A DNA stretch of 64,000 bases, taken from the NCBI GenBank assembly GCA_035496575.1, contig DATJEN010000195.1, positions 511 through 64,510 of the forward strand, read 5' to 3'. This document shows positions 6,474-11,690 of this stretch, piece by piece. The position numbers and the translations under genes are program-made. How positions within the stretch are numbered: the first letter of the stretch is position 1; the number at the start of each line of letters is the position of its first letter. This DNA comes from Pirellulales bacterium (GTDB lineage Bacteria > Planctomycetota > Planctomycetia > Pirellulales > PALSA-1355). A model generated the notes under the pieces. That model was not told the origin of the DNA. It saw only the letters and a list, made by a program, of their open reading frames with translations, and did not search any database.

Positions 6474-7070
6474 ATGACTGCTGCTTCGATTCGACAGGTC
6501 GTTTTTTCTGCCTTCTTGGTGGTTGGCTCTGCGACGCACCTCCTTGCTGCTTCAATTACATACGATGGTCTCAACCGACCAACAAGGATTCCTGCAATCA
6601 ATCTCCCGGGCCACGGGACTTTCGACGTTGTTGTTCGATACGAGTCATTTGAGAGTGTATTTGGGATTGGCAACCCCCCGAGCCCCTTGACACCTCTCTT
6701 TTGGGGCGACCTCGCCGGCGCCCAAGTAGCGACCGCCGCAATCGCCCAGGCACTAAATGATGACGGTCCCGTCTTGCCACAACTTCCTACTTCTGTTTTT
6801 CTGTTCTTTATGAGCGTGCCGTTCGACTACGATTCGAGACCGGGGAACACGTTCGGGTGGGTTAGGTCTCAGGATGTGTACGTTTTTACTTCTCAGCCGC
6901 ACCCTATGTACTCCGGTGGTGGAAGCGATGTGAACGCGCCAACCGCCAGCCTCGAATACGTCGGGTGGGCGAGCTTTGAAGTTGTTCCCGAACCCTCCAC
7001 GCTCTTCCTAGCCATGTTCGGACTCGTCGCCCTTCTCGCTACGTGGAACTGGCGCGTAATCCCGGAATAG
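6474..7070 (+). CDS. PEP-CTERM sorting-domain secreted protein
   Basis: N-terminal signal peptide (VVFSAFLVVGSATHLLAAS). The C-terminus reads VPEPSTLFLAMFGLVALLATWNWR, which is the PEP motif plus a TM helix plus a basic residue. Confidence 0.8.
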   Translation: MTAASIRQVVFSAFLVVGSATHLLAASITYDGLNRPTRIPAINLPGHGTFDVVVRYESFESVFGIGNPPSPLTPLFWGDLAGAQVATAAIAQALNDDGPVLPQLPTSVFLFFMSVPFDYDSRPGNTFGWVRSQDVYVFTSQPHPMYSGGGSDVNAPTASLEYVGWASFEVVPEPSTLFLAMFGLVALLATWNWRVIPE

Positions 7071-7286: not shown

Positions 7287-7550
7287 TTAGTTCATGCAGC
7301 GAGCCGCAGAAATAAGCTGTTCGGCGGTGAACTGACAACCGGCGGGGCCTTTCGCGGCCAACCGAACGCGGGCCGCATCTTCATACTCTTTCGCCGTGAA
7401 ATTGAATCCGGCCGCCGTCGCGATTCGCACGATCTCCTCCAGTCCGTTCGTGTCGGTCATCTTGATCGCCGACAACTGCTCGCGAAGCTGCGCGTTCTTT
7501 TGAACCTGCTTCAAGAACGCATTGGCGTCGCGGTTTTGCTTGGTTTTCAT
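7287..7550 (-). CDS. Nif11-domain small protein (possible Nif11-type leader peptide precursor)
   Basis: 87 aa. AFLKQVQKNAQLREQLSAIKMTDTNGLEEIVRIATAAGFNFTAKEY matches the Nif11 N-terminal domain pattern (aFL..v..d..L...l......eeiv.iA...GF.ft.ee). It is followed by a 36-aa tail with two Cys (GCQFTAEQLISAARCMN). ATG at 7550. Confidence 0.7.
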   Translation of the reverse strand: MKTKQNRDANAFLKQVQKNAQLREQLSAIKMTDTNGLEEIVRIATAAGFNFTAKEYEDAARVRLAAKGPAGCQFTAEQLISAARCMN

Positions 7551-7927: not shown

Positions 7928-8125
7928 TTAGACACCGCCCTCAAGTCGTGCCGTCTTAGCTCGGCGCACCGCGCGGTCGCGCTCGCGACGAATCGTGTCG
8001 CTCGGCTTGACGTAGAATTCGCGGCGCCGCATTTCTCTCTTGATGCCGCTGCGTTCAACCAACTTGCGGAATCGCCGAACGGCTTCTGAAATCGGTTCGC
8101 GGTCCCTCAGCTTCATATAGACCAT
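7928..8125 (-). CDS. rpsU: 30S ribosomal protein S21
   Basis: Track ORF 7928..8230 trimmed to the ATG at 8125, with GGGAG 5 nt upstream. [57 protein letters not shown] aligns with the canonical S21 pattern (V.V..nE....AlRRFkr..ek.G...e.rrre.yeKPs..r). Confidence 0.9.
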
Positions 8126-8257
8126 AGTCGCTCCCATGTTAGACGCCGGTTCCAAAAATTCTCCAGCCGTAGCAACCGCGCAGCAATAAACCAGCAACGT
8201 GCTTGGCTGACAGAAAAAGGCTTGCCGCAACTCTCGTCACGACAAGCCTTTATTTAG

Positions 8258-8330
8258 TGCTCCCTGATGGACTTGAACCATCAACCCTCTGATTAAGAGT
8301 CAGATGCTCTGCCAATTGAGCTAAGGGAGC
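8258..8330 (-). tRNA. tRNA-Lys(CTT), 73 nt
   Basis: Reverse complement folds as GCTCCCT TA GCTC AATTGGCA GAGC A TCTGA CTCTTAA TCAGA GGGTT GATGG TTCAAGT CCATC AGGGAGC A. All stems are Watson-Crick, the anticodon is CUU and CCA is not encoded. Confidence 0.95.
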
Positions 8331-8740
8331 GGGCGAAGCACTGCTGGCCGCCGGTTCCATGGTACTGAGATCGCGCCCAACGGCCAAGGGGTGAGCCCGG
8401 TTTCGTAATGCTTTACCGCCTGAGGCGGTATTTGAGGCAACTACGCTAGTGAAGTCCACTGGCCGGCCATCTGGATGGTCCGGATGGTCTCAATGAAAAG
8501 CATCGCTAGGATAGCGCGGCATACTCGAGCGCGGCGAGCTCGATCGGGTCGTGATGAAGGCGCGAGACAAGCGGCGTTTGAGGCGGTCTGCAAAAGAACG
8601 AAAGTGGATCACTTCCAAAATTGAAATGTCGTCGGCCGGTGATAGGTTACTGCATGTTCAACGACGCGCTCGTTGAGCGCGATCACCACGAGTGATCGGG
8701 GTATCCCAAGAGCTCGGCGCGGACAACGGGTATCTATAAG

Positions 8741-8783
8741 AGCCCGTAACGGTGCGAGCACGCGCCGGCTACGGGCTTTTTTT
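8741..8783 (+). terminator. rho-independent terminator / attenuator-like hairpin immediately upstream of the toxin-like gene
   Basis: AGCCCGTA (8741..8748) pairs with TACGGGCT (8770..8777). An inner stem pairs CGGTGCG (8750..8756) with CGCGCCG (8761..8767) around the tetraloop AGCA. A run of 7 T follows (8777..8783). The SD GGAGGA and the ATG at 8801 come 10-18 nt later. Confidence 0.6.
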
Positions 8784-8800
8784 ATGACCGGAGGAAGCCC

Positions 8801-9036
8801 ATGTATCCGAATTCGCGCAAGGAAATCCAGGTCGGCCCGGCCGAAAACTCATCCCATCCCGAAGCTTGGCTGTTCGCGCAAGAGATCCTGGGAAGACCAA
8901 TTCCGAGGCCACCCAGTGCGGCCGCAGCGCGGCGCGACCGTGAACAACTGGAATGGCTTGCGAGTATTTCCGACAGACATGCCGCGGAATGTCGCGCATA
9001 TGAAGGGCTGAAGCCGAGGCACGTCATCAGCGCGCG
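8801..9036 (+). pseudogene. frameshifted 5' segment of the toxin-like gene (or a remnant duplicate of its N-terminus)
   Basis: ATG at 8801 has the best SD of the locus (GGAGGAAGCCC-ATG). It encodes ...RDREQLEWLASISDRHAAECRAYE in frame 2, homologous to MLEWLATISDRHADELRRLQAAE that opens the 9037 ORF in frame 1. The nucleotide alignment shows the first repeat unit is 92 nt where 93 nt would be in frame: 11 nt (TATGAAGGGCT) in place of the 12 nt seen in unit 2. Confidence 0.55.
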
Positions 9037-9120
9037 ATGCTGGAATGGCTTGCCACAATCTCCGATCGCCACGCCGATGAGTTGCGGCGGCTCCAGGCGG
9101 CGGAAGCCGAAGCCCGCGAC
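8948..9120 (+). repeat. tandem duplication of a ~93-nt (31-aa) unit, LEWLA(S/T)ISDRHA...AEAEAR
   Basis: Unit 1 starts at 8948 and unit 2 at 9040, a period of 92 nt. The first 14 nt are identical (CTGGAATGGCTTGC) and the remainder is roughly 60-70% identical. GAAGCCGAGGCACGTCAT in unit 1 corresponds to GAAGCCGAAGCCCGCGAC in unit 2. Confidence 0.75.
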
Positions 9121-10629
9121 GGCAACTCGCTCGGACAGTGCCACGGCAATGGTTCACTTGTGAACGAGGCGTGGGTGCCGAGTCAGCACCCGCGCTTGGG
9201 TGGCCAGCCGAATGCAGGATATTTTGCGTCGACCGGAGGATCAGCCGGAAGTATGGTTCCGGCGAGCACGGCGCTCGCTGGCGTCGAAGCCGATCCCGAT
9301 GACGACAGGGGCGAGCTGACTGTCACGCCCAGCATGATTCGAGCAAGTGGATGGCTCGGTACCGTTCGCGAGAAGATGCGACTGGCGCGCGATGTTGCAG
9401 GTGCATTTGCCGCCGGATTGGGAACCGGGGCCAAGGCGGTCGTCAACGGGCTTGCTACTGGGACACGTAGCGTGGCGACGCTCGGATTGAACACGGATCA
9501 ACTCGAATTGATCGGGGTCACCAAGGAGGATCGAGAGCGCGGGTACGATACGGCGGTGACCATTAGCACGGGAAGCGGCCAGCTACTGATCGCGGTTGGA
9601 ACCGGCGGCATGACATCCGCTCTTGCCAAAGGCGGCACGATTGCCCGCGCGGCGAGCGGTGCGCTGATTGCCTATGACGCCGCCGGCAATGCCGTGGGAG
9701 TGGTGCAAGGAGTGTTAGACGCCGAAGAAAAAGGCCTGACGCTGGCCAACGGGACGAAAGTGGCGGCCAGCGCGCTTGGGATTTCCGCCAATATCAGTGC
9801 GGCGAAGGGCCTTCTCAAACCTCGTTCAGTCGCCCCGCCGGCGGAAGCGCCCCCTCGCACAACGCCTCCGCCCGCTAAGCCATTGGACTCGGAGTTTCGA
9901 GTGGGGAAACATGGCGACATGCCGTCGCCGCGTCCAGGGCAGCACTCACATCACGGTGTCATGTCGGAATGGGTCAGAAATCATTACCCGGGTTACGATC
10001 CGGATAAGGCCCCAGCCATATTGATGCCAAAGGAAAGCCATATAGAAACATACAGGGTATACAACAGTTGGAGGGCCCAAACGAAAAAAGAGTTCAGCGG
10101 CGCTTTCGATTGGGCTAAGATCGATGAAGACAGCATACGAGACGTGTCTGAGAAGATGTTCGATGCTGCAAAGGTGCCTGCAAGCGTGCGTGAACGGTAC
10201 TGGACAGAATTTGAACGTATGAAAGCTGCCCTTGAGCGACAGCGTCGATCACAGTCATTGGAACGAGGACTTGCGAGAGAATCGCTTATGAACGCAAATG
10301 CCGACATTCTGACGGACGAACAAATGAGAAGCCGATATGGACGCTTTTACGAAATAAGTCCCCGGCTTCAGTTAGATCGACGCCACGTTCCGATGCAATT
10401 CTGGCCCTTGTTGCCTTACGCTGAGTTCTGGGGATTTGCCGATGACTGGACAAGGCAAGACCTGGTGAGGCGCGCGCCACCCGACGTGCAACGCAACTTG
10501 AAGGAAGTACTCTCGATGTTCGATGACGCATTTGACGAATGGTTGGCCGGCCCGGAAGTTGCCGCCCCTAAACTCTCGGACGAATACGTCGCATTTACAG
10601 CGCTTCGCATGGCAGCCGATTTCGCTTGA
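9037..10629 (+). CDS. polymorphic-toxin-like multidomain protein: Gly/Ala-rich (pre-toxin TG-like) region, Pro-rich linker, xHH (SHH) HNH/EndoVII-like C-terminal module, immunity-like tail
   Basis: 530-aa ORF.
- aa 110-260: Gly/Ala/Thr-rich amphipathic segments (AGAFAAGLGTGAKAVVNGLATGT, LLIAVGTGGMTSALAKGG).
- aa 262-283: Pro-rich linker PRSVAPPAEAPPRTTPPPAKPL.
- aa 285-400: GQHSHHGVMSEW...APAILMPKESHIETYRVYNSW, resembling the xHH ... LP...H...Y pattern of the AHH/LHH/SHH/GHH HNH-EndoVII toxin families.
- aa 418-530: a separate acidic/aromatic domain.
Domain calls come from motif recollection, not from a search. Confidence 0.55.
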   Translation: MLEWLATISDRHADELRRLQAAEAEARDGNSLGQCHGNGSLVNEAWVPSQHPRLGGQPNAGYFASTGGSAGSMVPASTALAGVEADPDDDRGELTVTPSMIRASGWLGTVREKMRLARDVAGAFAAGLGTGAKAVVNGLATGTRSVATLGLNTDQLELIGVTKEDRERGYDTAVTISTGSGQLLIAVGTGGMTSALAKGGTIARAASGALIAYDAAGNAVGVVQGVLDAEEKGLTLANGTKVAASALGISANISAAKGLLKPRSVAPPAEAPPRTTPPPAKPLDSEFRVGKHGDMPSPRPGQHSHHGVMSEWVRNHYPGYDPDKAPAILMPKESHIETYRVYNSWRAQTKKEFSGAFDWAKIDEDSIRDVSEKMFDAAKVPASVRERYWTEFERMKAALERQRRSQSLERGLARESLMNANADILTDEQMRSRYGRFYEISPRLQLDRRHVPMQFWPLLPYAEFWGFADDWTRQDLVRRAPPDVQRNLKEVLSMFDDAFDEWLAGPEVAAPKLSDEYVAFTALRMAADFA

Positions 10630-10814: not shown

Positions 10815-11690
10815 ATGTGCGATCATTCCTTGGCTGTTGGCATTCGACTCTTTACGATCGCTTGCTTTTTGAGCTTGAACTCGGCCATCTGCGAGGCGCA
10901 GACCACTTCGGCAATCTACGTGATGCGGCTCGACGGAAGTCAAGTTCGCAAGGTCGCTGAAGGACCCGGCTTCAAAAGCGTCGGCCACCCGCGCTGGTCG
11001 CACGACGGTACGCGACTGGTCTTTCAAGGCTGGGGCGGCCCAACTCCCGTTCGCCAAATCTTTGTAGTCGCTGCCGAGGGTCCAGTCGGCTTAGTGCCAG
11101 ACAAGGGACCCGAGGGCCAGGTGCCCGATTGGTCACCCGACGACAAGCAACTCGCTTTTCAAAAGCCAGCGGAGGCGGGCAACCGAACGAGCGCTTGGGT
11201 TGCAAACCTTGATGGCGCGGGGGGAATTTTGGTGGGGTCCGGCGCCGCCCCGCGCTGGTCGCGCGATGGCGCAAGCCTGGCGTTTGTCGATTCGAACGAT
11301 CTGGTCGTCCGCGATCTGGTGAGCGAGCAGCAGAGCAGCCTCACGCAAGAGCCGTGGGAAGCCATTCGCCCTGGCTTCGACTGGTCGCCAAATGGAAAGC
11401 GCATAGCCTGCGTCGGCCAGCGCGCGGGCGTGGTGGGGCTGTGGATCATCGACGCCCAGAGTCGGGCGGCGCGGCTGCGACTCCAGGCGGACGTGATGGG
11501 CCAGGTGGCATGGTCGCCCGATGGCAAGCAGTTGGCGGTCACGCTGAAGAATAAGATTCAGTTGCTCAACGTCGACGACGCGACCAAGCCGCGTCCCATT
11601 CCCGCTCAGATCGGCGCAAGTCGCGATCCAGCGTGGTCACCCGATGGGAAGTGGATCGCCTTCTCGAGCAATCGCGTTGCCAGTCCATAG
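10815..11690 (+). CDS. TolB-like periplasmic beta-propeller protein (PD40/WD40-like repeats)
   Basis: Track ORF 10626..11690 trimmed to the ATG at 10815, giving the signal peptide MCDHSLAVGIRLFTIACFLSLNSAICEAQ. Repeated PD40-type motifs are present: PRWSHDGTRLVF, PDWSPDDKQLAF, PRWSRDGASLAF, FDWSPNGKRIA, VAWSPDGKQLAV, PAWSPDGKWIAFSS. Confidence 0.8.
   Translation: MCDHSLAVGIRLFTIACFLSLNSAICEAQTTSAIYVMRLDGSQVRKVAEGPGFKSVGHPRWSHDGTRLVFQGWGGPTPVRQIFVVAAEGPVGLVPDKGPEGQVPDWSPDDKQLAFQKPAEAGNRTSAWVANLDGAGGILVGSGAAPRWSRDGASLAFVDSNDLVVRDLVSEQQSSLTQEPWEAIRPGFDWSPNGKRIACVGQRAGVVGLWIIDAQSRAARLRLQADVMGQVAWSPDGKQLAVTLKNKIQLLNVDDATKPRPIPAQIGASRDPAWSPDGKWIAFSSNRVASP

What the first reader, a model, noticed from the sequence alone, without database searches (positions are those of the whole stretch)
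10288..10629. Immunity-like domain fused in frame to the 3' end of the toxin-like ORF
In polymorphic toxin systems the cognate immunity protein is normally a separate downstream gene. Here the next gene is an unrelated TolB-like protein that starts 185 nt downstream.

The last about 113 codons of the toxin ORF encode a distinct acidic, aromatic-rich domain: MNANADILTDEQMRSRYGRFYEISPRLQLDRRHVPMQFWPLLPYAEFWGFADDW...FDDAFDEWLAGPE...YVAFTALRMAADFA. It begins at an in-frame ATG (10288), right after a basic helical segment that looks like the end of the nuclease module. No stop codon separates the two.

Possible explanations:
- The immunity protein is produced by internal translation initiation from a nested in-frame start.
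- The toxin is self-neutralised by a covalently attached immunity domain that is removed on delivery.
- A stop codon was lost and the locus is decaying.

The first two would be unusual biology.
Basis: inference. Interest (0 to 1): 0.65.

Follow-up and report, generated by a model that had tools for sequence, protein, structure and literature searches.

The report
Toxin gene with built-in immunity gene
The last 113 codons of this bacterial DNase-toxin gene are an antidote (immunity) gene that usually stands alone, and in a group of soil planctomycete toxins it is instead kept in frame inside the toxin gene with its own start codon preserved, which is an unusual way to pair a toxin with its antidote.

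Summary
ORF 9037-10629 (530 aa) carries a Tox-SHH nuclease domain (aa 304-394). It runs without a stop into a 113-codon tail that begins at ATG 10288.

The tail belongs to a large family that Pfam does not describe: 989 clusters at 50% identity. Most members are free-standing proteins of about 113 aa. They lie directly after Tox-SHH toxin genes, in tandem arrays, or in multi-immunity loci. The tail is therefore an immunity module, not part of the nuclease.

The fusion is neither an assembly error nor simple decay:
- Independent metagenome and metatranscriptome contigs match the junction exactly.
- At least 10 distinct proteins, several of them full length (604-618 aa), show the same in-frame layout with intact SHH motifs.
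- The cause is a frame change (+1 or +16 nt) in the former toxin/immunity overlap, not a mutated stop codon.

Among 23 natural fusions, the immunity Met is kept in 21, inside an otherwise hypervariable linker that AlphaFold predicts to be disordered. Most relatives keep a GGAG 8-9 nt upstream of it. AlphaFold docks the two domains confidently (pTM 0.84).

Best reading: a nested in-frame immunity gene plus a self-neutralised toxin-immunity precursor. The window's own copy also has a 1-nt deletion near 8989 that puts the toxin's N-terminus out of frame.

The parts
8600..8790 (+). Conserved non-coding leader upstream of the toxin start. It ends in a terminator-like hairpin followed by a T-run, just before the ribosome-binding site.
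   Evidence: The alignment with L044, L053, L055 and L005 has invariant blocks, although the encoded proteins are only 45-60% identical. RNAalifold predicts 59 pairs, 7 of them with compensatory changes. No Rfam family matches here.
8801..8989 (+). Original start and first ~63 codons of the toxin (MYPNSRKEIQ...EAWLFAQEILG...QLEWLASISDRHAAE). In this copy they are out of frame with the main ORF.
   Evidence: tblastn with the full-length L044 toxin places its N-terminus in this frame. L051 (94.5% identical) reads the segment in one frame with the rest, and the window lacks 1 nt near 8989. An X3 contig matches 8902-9052 exactly.
9037..9888 (+). Conserved scaffold of the polymorphic toxin: second LEWLA repeat, Gly/Ala-rich central region, Pro-rich spacer.
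   Evidence: It is 46-74% identical to the scaffolds of L044, L005, L010, L015 and L008. L044 carries the same scaffold with a different toxin tip, a weak Tox-REase-2 match. GC is 64% here against 52% in the tip.
9892..10239 (+). Tox-SHH (HNH/EndoVII-fold) nuclease domain with an intact SHH motif (HSHHG).
   Evidence: Pfam PF15652 matches aa 304-394 at E 2.4e-11. A custom HMM matches at 4e-63. The motif is compared across fused and unfused toxins. dN/dS against L051 is 0.035.
10240..10287 (+). Hypervariable linker (aa 402-417). This was formerly the toxin-tail/immunity-start overlap. It is 16 nt longer than in L005 and L006, which puts the toxin in the immunity frame.
   Evidence: See the nucleotide alignment and the alignment of 23 fusions. 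AF2 pLDDT is below 50 for aa 409-420.
10275..10281 (+). Degenerate SD-like purine run GAGAGAA, 6 nt upstream of the internal ATG. Relatives have GGAGA or GGGGAG at this position.
   Evidence: Anti-SD duplex energy is -3.0 kcal/mol here, against -6.4 to -10 in L008, L044-L047, L050 and L053, which fall in the top 1-8% of the in-ORF background.
10288..10629 (+). Immunity module of 113 codons plus the stop (10627-10629). It starts at the conserved internal ATG (M418). It is an all-alpha domain of an undescribed family with motifs LLPYAEFWG-DD and DEWLAGPE.
   Evidence: 75 homologues were found, nearly all free-standing at about 113 aa, and 989 cluster representatives. AF2 gives pLDDT 84.7 and pTM 0.78. 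No match was found in Pfam or NCBIfam or in PDB folds.
10310..10312 (+). Relic of the ancestral toxin stop codon (TGA within ACATTCTGA). It now lies in the +1 frame relative to the toxin.
   Evidence: In L005 and L006 the toxin ORF ends at the homologous TTCTGA, 25 nt inside the immunity gene.

Best explanation
The locus is a polymorphic toxin of a soil planctomycete. A conserved scaffold carries a C-terminal Tox-SHH DNase tip, and the tip is followed by its cognate immunity module.

In most relatives the immunity protein is a separate 113-aa gene. That gene overlaps the toxin's end or directly follows it. In the clade that includes this window, an indel in the overlap (+1 nt, or +16 nt here) moved the toxin frame onto the immunity frame. 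One ORF now encodes scaffold, nuclease, a flexible linker and the immunity domain.

I propose two products:
1. A full-length precursor. Its tethered immunity domain docks on the nuclease and keeps it harmless in the producer cell. The disordered linker is the likely place where the two are later separated.
2. A free 113-aa immunity protein, made by ribosomes that start at the retained internal ATG (10288). This would protect the cell against toxin delivered by sister cells.

What is shown: the homology, the separate-gene norm, the conserved in-frame clade, the invariant Met, the SD-like motif in relatives, and the intact catalytic motif.

What is inferred: immunity function, cis-docking, internal initiation, and linker cleavage.

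The window's own allele also has a 1-nt deletion near 8989 that displaces the first ~63 codons. At most an N-terminally shortened toxin can start at 9037. This copy may now serve mainly as a source of immunity.
For: (1) The tail is a free-standing family.
- The tail alone found 75 hits, almost all 113 aa and covering about 100% of the query.
- An exhaustive profile search found 989 representatives, 488 of them at E<=1e-10. Among the 251 immunity-only proteins fetched across the three searches, the median length is about 116 aa.

(2) The genomic context is that of an immunity gene.
- The gene sits directly downstream of Tox-SHH toxin genes in L005, L006, L009, L010, L013, L026, L030 and L036, in another frame or after a stop.
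- There are tandem copies (L005, L049) and poly-immunity proteins (P0076, P0078, P0084, P0088, P0136).
- One member is fused to ankyrin repeats (P0086).
- Neighbours include Imm1, Imm11, SUFU and SUKH genes.

(3) The fusion is real and conserved.
- Independent contigs match the junction.
- 10 fusions carry a complete toxin domain, including full-length proteins P0242-P0246 (604-618 aa, 59-71% identical to the window). Another 11 carry partial toxin domains.
- No second immunity copy lies downstream in L053, L055, L056 or on the P0242 contig.

(4) The origin is a +16 nt (long class) or +1 nt (short class) change relative to the L005/L006 overlap. The old stop survives out of frame.

(5) The internal start looks conserved.
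- Met is present at the immunity start in 21 of 23 fusions, while no other linker column reaches 60% conservation.
- This Met lies in the AF2-disordered segment.
- GGAG sits 8-9 nt upstream in 7 of 11 fused loci that have DNA.
- mRNA structure at the window's ATG is weak: -5.4 kcal/mol against a mean of -12.2, among the weakest 6%.

(6) Cis-docking is predicted. AF2 of aa 285-530, using an alignment of natural fusions, gives pLDDT 87 and pTM 0.84. Only the linker has low confidence.

(7) The toxin is still constrained. The SHH motif is intact in all fused toxins, and dN/dS of the toxin domain against L051 is 0.035.

(8) Tox-SHH effectors are DNases neutralised by a neighbouring immunity protein (bioRxiv 10.1101/2023.03.20.533438). 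Engineered covalent toxin-immunity fusions neutralise polymorphic toxins and release active toxin after linker cleavage (bioRxiv 10.64898/2026.07.31.742022).
Against: - There is no direct evidence for protein products, for binding, or for protection.
- In the window itself the SD-like motif is degenerate (GAGAGAA, -3.0 kcal/mol, at the background median).
- The Met could in principle be a historical leftover.
- pTM is an indirect measure. No PAE or contact map was available, so occlusion of the active site was not checked.
- No protease site or processing domain was found in the linker.
- The export route of these toxins is unknown, since there is no Pfam hit in the scaffold.
- The window copy (deletion near 8989) and its close relative L051 (deletion at 9702) each carry a different frameshift in the toxin. 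This lineage may be losing the toxin.
- The share of fusions among toxins (10 of 46) is inflated, because the search profile was itself a fusion.
Confidence: 0.6

Rival explanations
1. Pure cis-fusion. The immunity domain is made only as the covalent C-terminal part of the toxin. The internal ATG is not used as a start, and its conservation is historical or structural.
For: - Intact full-length fusions exist with no second immunity gene downstream.
- AF2 docks the domains with pTM 0.84.
- The SD-like motif is weak in the window, L051, L055 and L056.
- Engineered fusions are enough to neutralise such toxins.
Against: - Met is kept in 21 of 23 fusions that are only 41-71% identical to each other. 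It lies in a linker where every other column varies and that AF2 predicts to be disordered, so it has no obvious structural role.
- The conserved W-[G/R]-E linker codons spell GGAG at the right spacing.
- A cell that makes only tethered immunity would have no free immunity against toxin arriving from kin.
Confidence: 0.15
2. A decaying locus. In this genome the toxin is already a pseudogene, and the only functional product is the immunity protein, kept as an orphan defence against neighbours' toxins. On this reading the in-frame continuity has no function.
For: - The window has a 1-nt deletion near 8989 that displaces the N-terminus, and an independent contig confirms it.
- L051 has a different frameshift at 9702 plus a 27-nt deletion.
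- Many relatives are orphan cassettes in which a truncated toxin remnant is fused in frame to the immunity module (L044/P0012, L047/P0002, P0043, P0249-P0251).
- In L011 a deletion removed the toxin entirely.
Against: - The fusion long predates these lesions. It is shared by intact 604-618-aa toxins with complete SHH motifs.
- Substitutions between the window and L051 are mostly synonymous, and toxin dN/dS is 0.035, so the toxin was under strong constraint until very recently.
- A product starting at ATG 9037 remains possible.
- This rival explains the state of this allele, but not why the architecture exists.
Confidence: 0.2
3. Artefact or misreading. Either the fusion is a sequencing or assembly frameshift, or aa 285-530 form one contiguous nuclease domain.
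For: - Some related fusions come from long-read MAGs, where indel errors are common (L008, P0097).
- Gene callers sometimes reported 113-aa proteins inside longer open frames (P0001, P0002).
Against: - Short-read contigs from other samples match the junction exactly.
- The same frame is found in many JGI and Logan short-read assemblies.
- 36 toxins of the same subfamily end within 18 aa of the nuclease domain, and 251 proteins consist of the tail domain alone.
- AF2 shows two separately folded units joined by a disordered linker.
Confidence: 0.03

Closest known systems
Tox-SHH polymorphic toxin / immunity pairs (for example Agrobacterium tumefaciens V2c-V3c; families catalogued by Zhang et al. 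2012, PMC3482391)
   Same: - A C-terminal Tox-SHH (HNH/EndoVII) DNase tip sits on a modular scaffold.
- The tip is of lower GC than the scaffold and is exchangeable. L044 has the same scaffold with another tip.
- The immunity determinant lies immediately 3' of the toxin.
- Orphan cassettes and poly-immunity loci occur.
   Different: - The immunity module is not one of the families listed for Tox-SHH (SUKH, Imm11, Imm24, Imm30, Imm55). It matches no Pfam model.
- It lies in frame inside the toxin ORF rather than in a separate gene.
- The scaffold has no recognised trafficking domain (T6SS, T7SS, RHS and the like).
Nuclease colicins and pyocins with Im proteins (ColE7/E9-Im7/Im9) (my own knowledge)
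   Same: An HNH-type DNase is held inactive by a small, acidic, helical immunity protein that binds the nuclease domain in the producer cell and has to leave before the toxin acts.
   Different: - In colicins the immunity protein is a separate gene product bound non-covalently.
- There is no sequence or fold similarity.
- Here the immunity domain is, at least in one product, part of the same polypeptide.
Fused toxin-antitoxin proteins with a cis-acting antitoxin domain (EzeT, CapRel SJ46) (my own knowledge)
   Same: One polypeptide contains both the toxic domain and the domain that neutralises it.
   Different: - Those are intracellular toxin-antitoxin or phage-defence modules, not exported interbacterial toxins.
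- In them the neutralising domain is released by a trigger rather than by export.
- They are not homologous to this locus.
Gene-within-gene coding by in-frame internal initiation (for example the two Fha isoforms of Vibrio cholerae, PMC13389060, listed; CheA-L/S and IF2 isoforms from my own knowledge)
   Same: An internal in-frame start codon inside a longer ORF gives a shorter protein identical to the C-terminal part of the long one.
   Different: In the known cases the isoforms belong to one functional protein. Here the short product would be the antidote to the long one.
Engineered toxin-immunity fusion constructs (bioRxiv 10.64898/2026.07.31.742022)
   Same: An immunity protein covalently linked to a polymorphic toxin neutralises it during synthesis, and cleaving the linker restores activity.
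   Different: - Those constructs are artificial, with the order immunity-linker-toxin and a TEV protease site.
- The present case is natural and evolutionarily conserved, with the order toxin-linker-immunity.

Membership tests
Tox-SHH (Pfam PF15652) | Profile match above the curated threshold | tested here: met
   44.7 bits against a cut-off of 22.7, E 2.4e-11, aa 304-394.
Tox-SHH (Pfam PF15652) | [S/G]HH catalytic signature and a downstream His | tested here: met
   The motif is HSHHG...ESH. It aligns with SHH...NH in fused and unfused relatives. Nuclease activity was not tested.
Polymorphic toxin system (Zhang et al. 2012) | A conserved N-terminal part with exchangeable C-terminal toxin tips | tested here: met
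   L044 has the same scaffold (46% identity over 387 aa) but a different tip, a weak Tox-REase-2 match, and its own downstream gene. GC drops from 64% to 52% at the tip.
Polymorphic toxin system (Zhang et al. 2012) | A cognate immunity gene immediately downstream as a separate ORF | tested here: not met
   In the window the immunity module is in frame with the toxin and no stop separates them. The separate-ORF state is found in relatives L005, L006, L009, L026, L030 and L036.
Polymorphic toxin system (Zhang et al. 2012) | Orphan toxin-tip/immunity cassettes and poly-immunity loci | tested here: met
   Seen in L044, L047, L049, L055 and L001, and in tandem-domain proteins P0076, P0078 and P0088.
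Polymorphic toxin system (Zhang et al. 2012) | A recognisable trafficking or secretion domain | tested here: inconclusive
   Pfam finds nothing in the scaffold of the window protein, P0242 or P0246. One relative (P0102) is fused to a phage portal protein. The export route is unknown.
Known immunity families for Tox-SHH (SUKH/SMI1, Imm11, Imm24, Imm30, Imm55) | Profile match of the tail or its homologues | tested here: not met
   None of the 41 family members matched any of these at E<=5, and NCBIfam gave nothing. No fold match was found in the PDB.
Immunity protein (functional class) | Binds and neutralises the cognate toxin | not testable with these tools
   Support is indirect only: gene-neighbourhood evidence and an AF2 model of the fusion with pTM 0.84.
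Nested in-frame gene (internal translation initiation) | A conserved start codon with initiation signals inside a longer ORF | tested here: met
   Met is present in 21 of 23 fusions within a hypervariable linker. GGAG lies 8-9 nt upstream in 7 of 11 loci but is weak in the window. Local mRNA structure at the window's ATG is low.
Nested in-frame gene (internal translation initiation) | The short protein is actually produced | not testable with these tools
   This needs translation-initiation-site profiling, N-terminomics or tagged expression. The only available data are metatranscriptome contigs showing that the region is transcribed.

The most novel reading that the evidence does not exclude
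A conserved class of interbacterial DNase toxins encodes its own antidote as a nested in-frame gene. One ORF yields two products. The first is a self-neutralised pro-toxin, whose covalently tethered immunity domain must be cut off at a disordered linker during or after export. The second is a free immunity protein made from an internal start codon. This would be a natural 'pro-toxin with built-in immunity' design. I found no report of it for polymorphic toxins. It uses a previously undescribed immunity fold.
Probability: 0.45. Interest if true: 0.75.

Novelty: new variant of a known kind. Interest (0 to 1): 0.62.

Why it matters
Toxin-immunity pairs are normally two genes whose products must be balanced. 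Here a whole clade keeps them in one reading frame.

- **If the tethered domain neutralises the nuclease in cis**, the design guarantees one antidote per toxin molecule. It also implies an unknown activation step, cleavage of the linker, which could be studied directly.
- **If the internal ATG is used**, this is a clear natural case of gene-within-gene coding in which the short product counteracts the long one.
- **For annotation**, the tail defines a large immunity family (about a thousand clusters at 50% identity) that current domain databases miss. Gene callers either merge it with the toxin or report only the internal ORF.
- **As a resource**, the natural fusions provide paired toxin-immunity sequences for studying the interface.

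Tried and rejected
- **Domain databases.** Pfam and NCBIfam scans of the tail and of 41 family members found no immunity family.
- **Structure comparison.** Foldseek of both AF2 models against the PDB gave nothing below E=3.
- **Viral contigs.** Scans with the family profile and with the portal-toxin fusion P0102 found no relatives.
- **Failed alignment.** A first mixed alignment of toxins, immunities and the fusion (A3) was misaligned by MAFFT and was not used for structure prediction.
- **Toxin-domain search.** It returned only 16 hits because of the word index. A profile built from natural fusions was needed to find the full-length fusions.
- **Metagenome-contig scan.** With the window junction as query it gave only 3 loci.
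- **Run X1.** This best k-mer holder gave no laid contigs, because only 28% of the run was read.
- **P0242 contig.** Its DNA could not be fetched.
- **Assembly error.** I considered this and rejected it.
- **One contiguous domain.** I considered this and rejected it.
- **Programmed frameshifting** to the relic TGA at 10310-10312 is conceivable. I have no evidence for it and did not pursue it.
- **Literature.** Searches found no report of natural toxin-immunity fusions in polymorphic toxins. The library is incomplete, so absence is not proven.
Full report
**1. The observation**

The window contains a 530-codon ORF on the + strand, 9037-10629. Pfam places a Tox-SHH domain (HNH/EndoVII nuclease toxin) at aa 304-394, with E 2.4e-11 and a score well above the curated cut-off. 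An in-frame ATG lies at 10288 (M418). No stop separates it from the toxin. The next gene is a PD40/TolB-like propeller with a plausible ATG at 10815, 185 nt after the stop.

**2. The junction is not an artefact**

- A Logan contig from a soil metagenome of a different study from the best-matching run (X3) matches 10064-10340 without a difference.
- A metatranscriptome contig (X25) matches 10161-10328, so the junction is also transcribed.
- A JGI contig that is 94.5% identical over 1.8 kb (L051) has the same in-frame junction.

**3. What the tail is**

Searched alone, the 113-aa tail finds 75 proteins at E 2e-50 to 2e-9. Almost all are exactly 113 aa and cover the whole query. A profile search that reads every protein of a 1.8-billion-protein library finds 989 cluster representatives, 488 of them at E<=1e-10. 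Among the best 150 listed, most are 105-125 aa.

The family matches no Pfam or NCBIfam model, even at permissive thresholds and for 41 different members. In particular it is none of the immunity families that Zhang et al. 2012 list for Tox-SHH: SUKH, Imm11, Imm24, Imm30 and Imm55 (PMC3482391). AlphaFold2 (AF2) gives a confident all-alpha domain (pLDDT 84.7, pTM 0.78). It has no structural relative in the PDB.

**4. The genomic context is that of an immunity gene**

- In L005, L006, L009, L010, L013, L026, L030 and L036 the small gene lies directly after a Tox-SHH toxin gene. It is in another frame or follows a stop.
- In L005 and L006 the toxin ORF ends 25 nt inside the small gene, at a TTCTGA.
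- Elsewhere the small gene occurs as tandem copies (L005, L049).
- It also occurs as proteins made of two to four copies of the domain (P0076, P0078, P0084, P0088, P0136).
- One member is fused to ankyrin repeats (P0086).
- It is found among Imm1, Imm11-like, SUFU and SUKH genes.

This is the classic pattern of immunity proteins of polymorphic toxins. Most genome hits are Planctomycetota. Scattered members occur in Verrucomicrobiota, Acidobacteriota, Proteobacteria and other phyla. In the set of proteins fetched, 36 toxins of this subfamily end within 18 residues of the nuclease domain, and 251 proteins consist of the tail domain alone.

**5. The fusion is an old, conserved architecture**

This is the point that changes the picture. 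A profile built from natural fusions recovered the window's own protein (P0241) and many others with toxin and immunity in one frame.

- P0242 and P0243 (618 aa), P0244 (611), P0245 (607) and P0246 (604) are full-length toxins with the complete N-terminus.
- P0247, P0248 and P0079 also carry a complete toxin domain.
- P0102 has a phage portal protein, then Tox-SHH, then the immunity domain.
- In all, 10 proteins have a complete toxin domain fused to the immunity domain, and 11 more have a partial toxin domain.
- They are only 41-71% identical to the window, so the arrangement has persisted for a long time.
- All have an intact SHH motif.
- Where DNA or gene tables are available (L053, L055, L056 and the P0242 contig), no second free copy of the immunity gene follows.
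- The two closest relatives of the tail were reported by gene callers as 113-aa proteins (P0001, P0002). They also sit in open frames that continue upstream into toxin sequence.

**6. How the fusion arose**

Nucleotide alignment shows that the window, L044 and L045 have 16 nt more between the end of the nuclease domain and the immunity ATG than L005 and L006. L008 has 1 nt more. Either change moves the toxin frame onto the immunity frame. The former toxin stop survives out of frame at 10310-10312. The cause is therefore a frame change in the old overlap, not a mutated stop codon. Two linker length classes exist, differing by 15 nt.

**7. Evidence that the immunity start codon is still in use**

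- In an alignment of 23 natural fusions, the column of the immunity Met holds Met in 21. P0102 has it one residue away, and P0256 has Val. No other column in the surrounding 20 residues reaches 60% conservation.
- In the AF2 model of aa 285-530, this Met lies in the only low-confidence segment, aa 409-420. A structural reason for keeping it is therefore unlikely.
- In 7 of 11 fused loci with DNA, a GGAG or GGGGAG lies 8-9 nt upstream of the ATG. These rank in the top 1-8% of anti-Shine-Dalgarno (anti-SD) pairing energies among all in-ORF positions. The conserved linker residues W-[G/R]-E are the translation of that motif.
- In the window and L051 the motif has decayed to GAGAGAA and is no better than background.
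- However, the mRNA around the window's ATG is among the least structured 6% of positions in the ORF.

**8. Evidence for cis-neutralisation**

I modelled aa 285-530 with AF2, using an alignment of natural fusions, which supplies paired sequences. The model has pLDDT 87 and pTM 0.84. Both domains are above 85 and only the linker is disordered. A pTM this high for two domains joined by a floppy linker means that the program places them confidently against each other. I could not inspect contacts, so I cannot say whether the active site is covered. From the literature:

- Tox-SHH effectors are DNases neutralised by a neighbouring immunity protein.
- Artificial covalent toxin-immunity fusions neutralise polymorphic toxins and release active toxin after linker cleavage.

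**9. The state of this particular copy**

The toxin's true start is probably ATG 8801. The segment 8801-8989 is homologous to the N-terminus of full-length relatives but lies in another frame. L051 reads straight through, and the window lacks one base near 8989. An X3 contig confirms the window's version. L051 in turn has its own 1-nt deletion at 9702 and a 27-nt in-frame deletion.

Substitutions between the two are mostly at third codon positions. dN/dS values are:

| Region | dN/dS |
|---|---|
| Nuclease domain | 0.035 |
| Scaffold | 0.12-0.22 |
| Linker plus immunity | 0.45 |

. The toxin was therefore under strong constraint until very recently. Two sister alleles have each just acquired a different lesion. 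This copy may now make only an N-terminally shortened toxin from ATG 9037, or it may matter mainly as a source of immunity.

**10. Verdict**

Its first two mechanisms are not alternatives. The data fit both at once: a tethered immunity domain on the precursor, and a free immunity protein from the internal start. The 'decay' reading is wrong for the architecture but partly right for this allele.

Against what is known, this is a new variant of the polymorphic toxin-immunity theme, built with a new immunity family. It works like colicin/Im pairs and like cis-neutralised toxin-antitoxin fusions, but it is a member of neither. My literature searches found no report of natural toxin-immunity fusions in such systems. 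The library is incomplete, so absence is not proven.

My confidence in each claim:

| Claim | Confidence |
|---|---|
| The tail is an immunity-type module | about 0.9 |
| The in-frame architecture is genuine and conserved | about 0.95 |
| The internal start is used | about 0.6 |
| The tethered domain neutralises in cis and is later removed | about 0.5 |

Noticed in passing
window 8600-8790 (+); also L044 2390-2520, L053 2320-2460, L055 5835-5995, L005 4355-4500: A ~170-nt non-coding element is strongly conserved just upstream of these toxin genes, although the proteins are only 45-60% identical. It folds into several hairpins and ends in a terminator-like stem (GAGCCCG...CGGGCTC) followed by a T-run, right before the ribosome-binding site. 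It looks like an attenuator or riboswitch-type leader. No Rfam family matches it.
   Followed up: partly
window 8801-9163 and about 8989: The toxin's real N-terminus (MYPNSRKEIQ...LEWLASISDRH) is out of frame with the main ORF because of a 1-nt deletion relative to L051. An independent contig confirms the deletion. The sister allele L051 has a different frameshift at 9702 plus a 27-nt deletion.
   Followed up: yes
L056 1129-3552 (protein P0102): An 807-aa protein combines a phage portal domain, a Tox-SHH nuclease and the immunity domain in one frame. It lies next to a phage capsid gene. A head-packaged toxin with built-in immunity would be a separate curiosity.
   Followed up: partly
L011 3900-4285: The 5' half of the conserved leader is joined directly to an immunity gene that lacks its first ~18 codons. 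A deletion has removed the whole toxin.
   Followed up: partly
window 8257-8330 (-): A tRNA-Lys (CTT) gene lies about 470 nt upstream of the toxin start. The toxin tip and the immunity module have 52-54% GC against 61% for the window as a whole, which fits an acquired cassette.
   Followed up: partly
window 10533: A T/G polymorphism (Phe to Leu in DDAFDEW) is seen in an independent metagenome contig and in the cluster representative P0241. Leu is the family consensus.
   Followed up: partly
window 8950-9090: The toxin N-terminus contains two tandem copies of a LEWLAxISDRHxxE motif. Relatives L044, L005 and P0242-P0246 have them too. A patch of unusually dense substitutions against L051 lies at 8990-9010, next to the deletion.
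   Followed up: no
window 6474-7070, 7287-7550 (-), 7928-8122 (-): Neighbouring genes are a PEP-CTERM protein, a Nif11-domain small protein (a possible peptide precursor) and ribosomal protein S21.
   Followed up: partly
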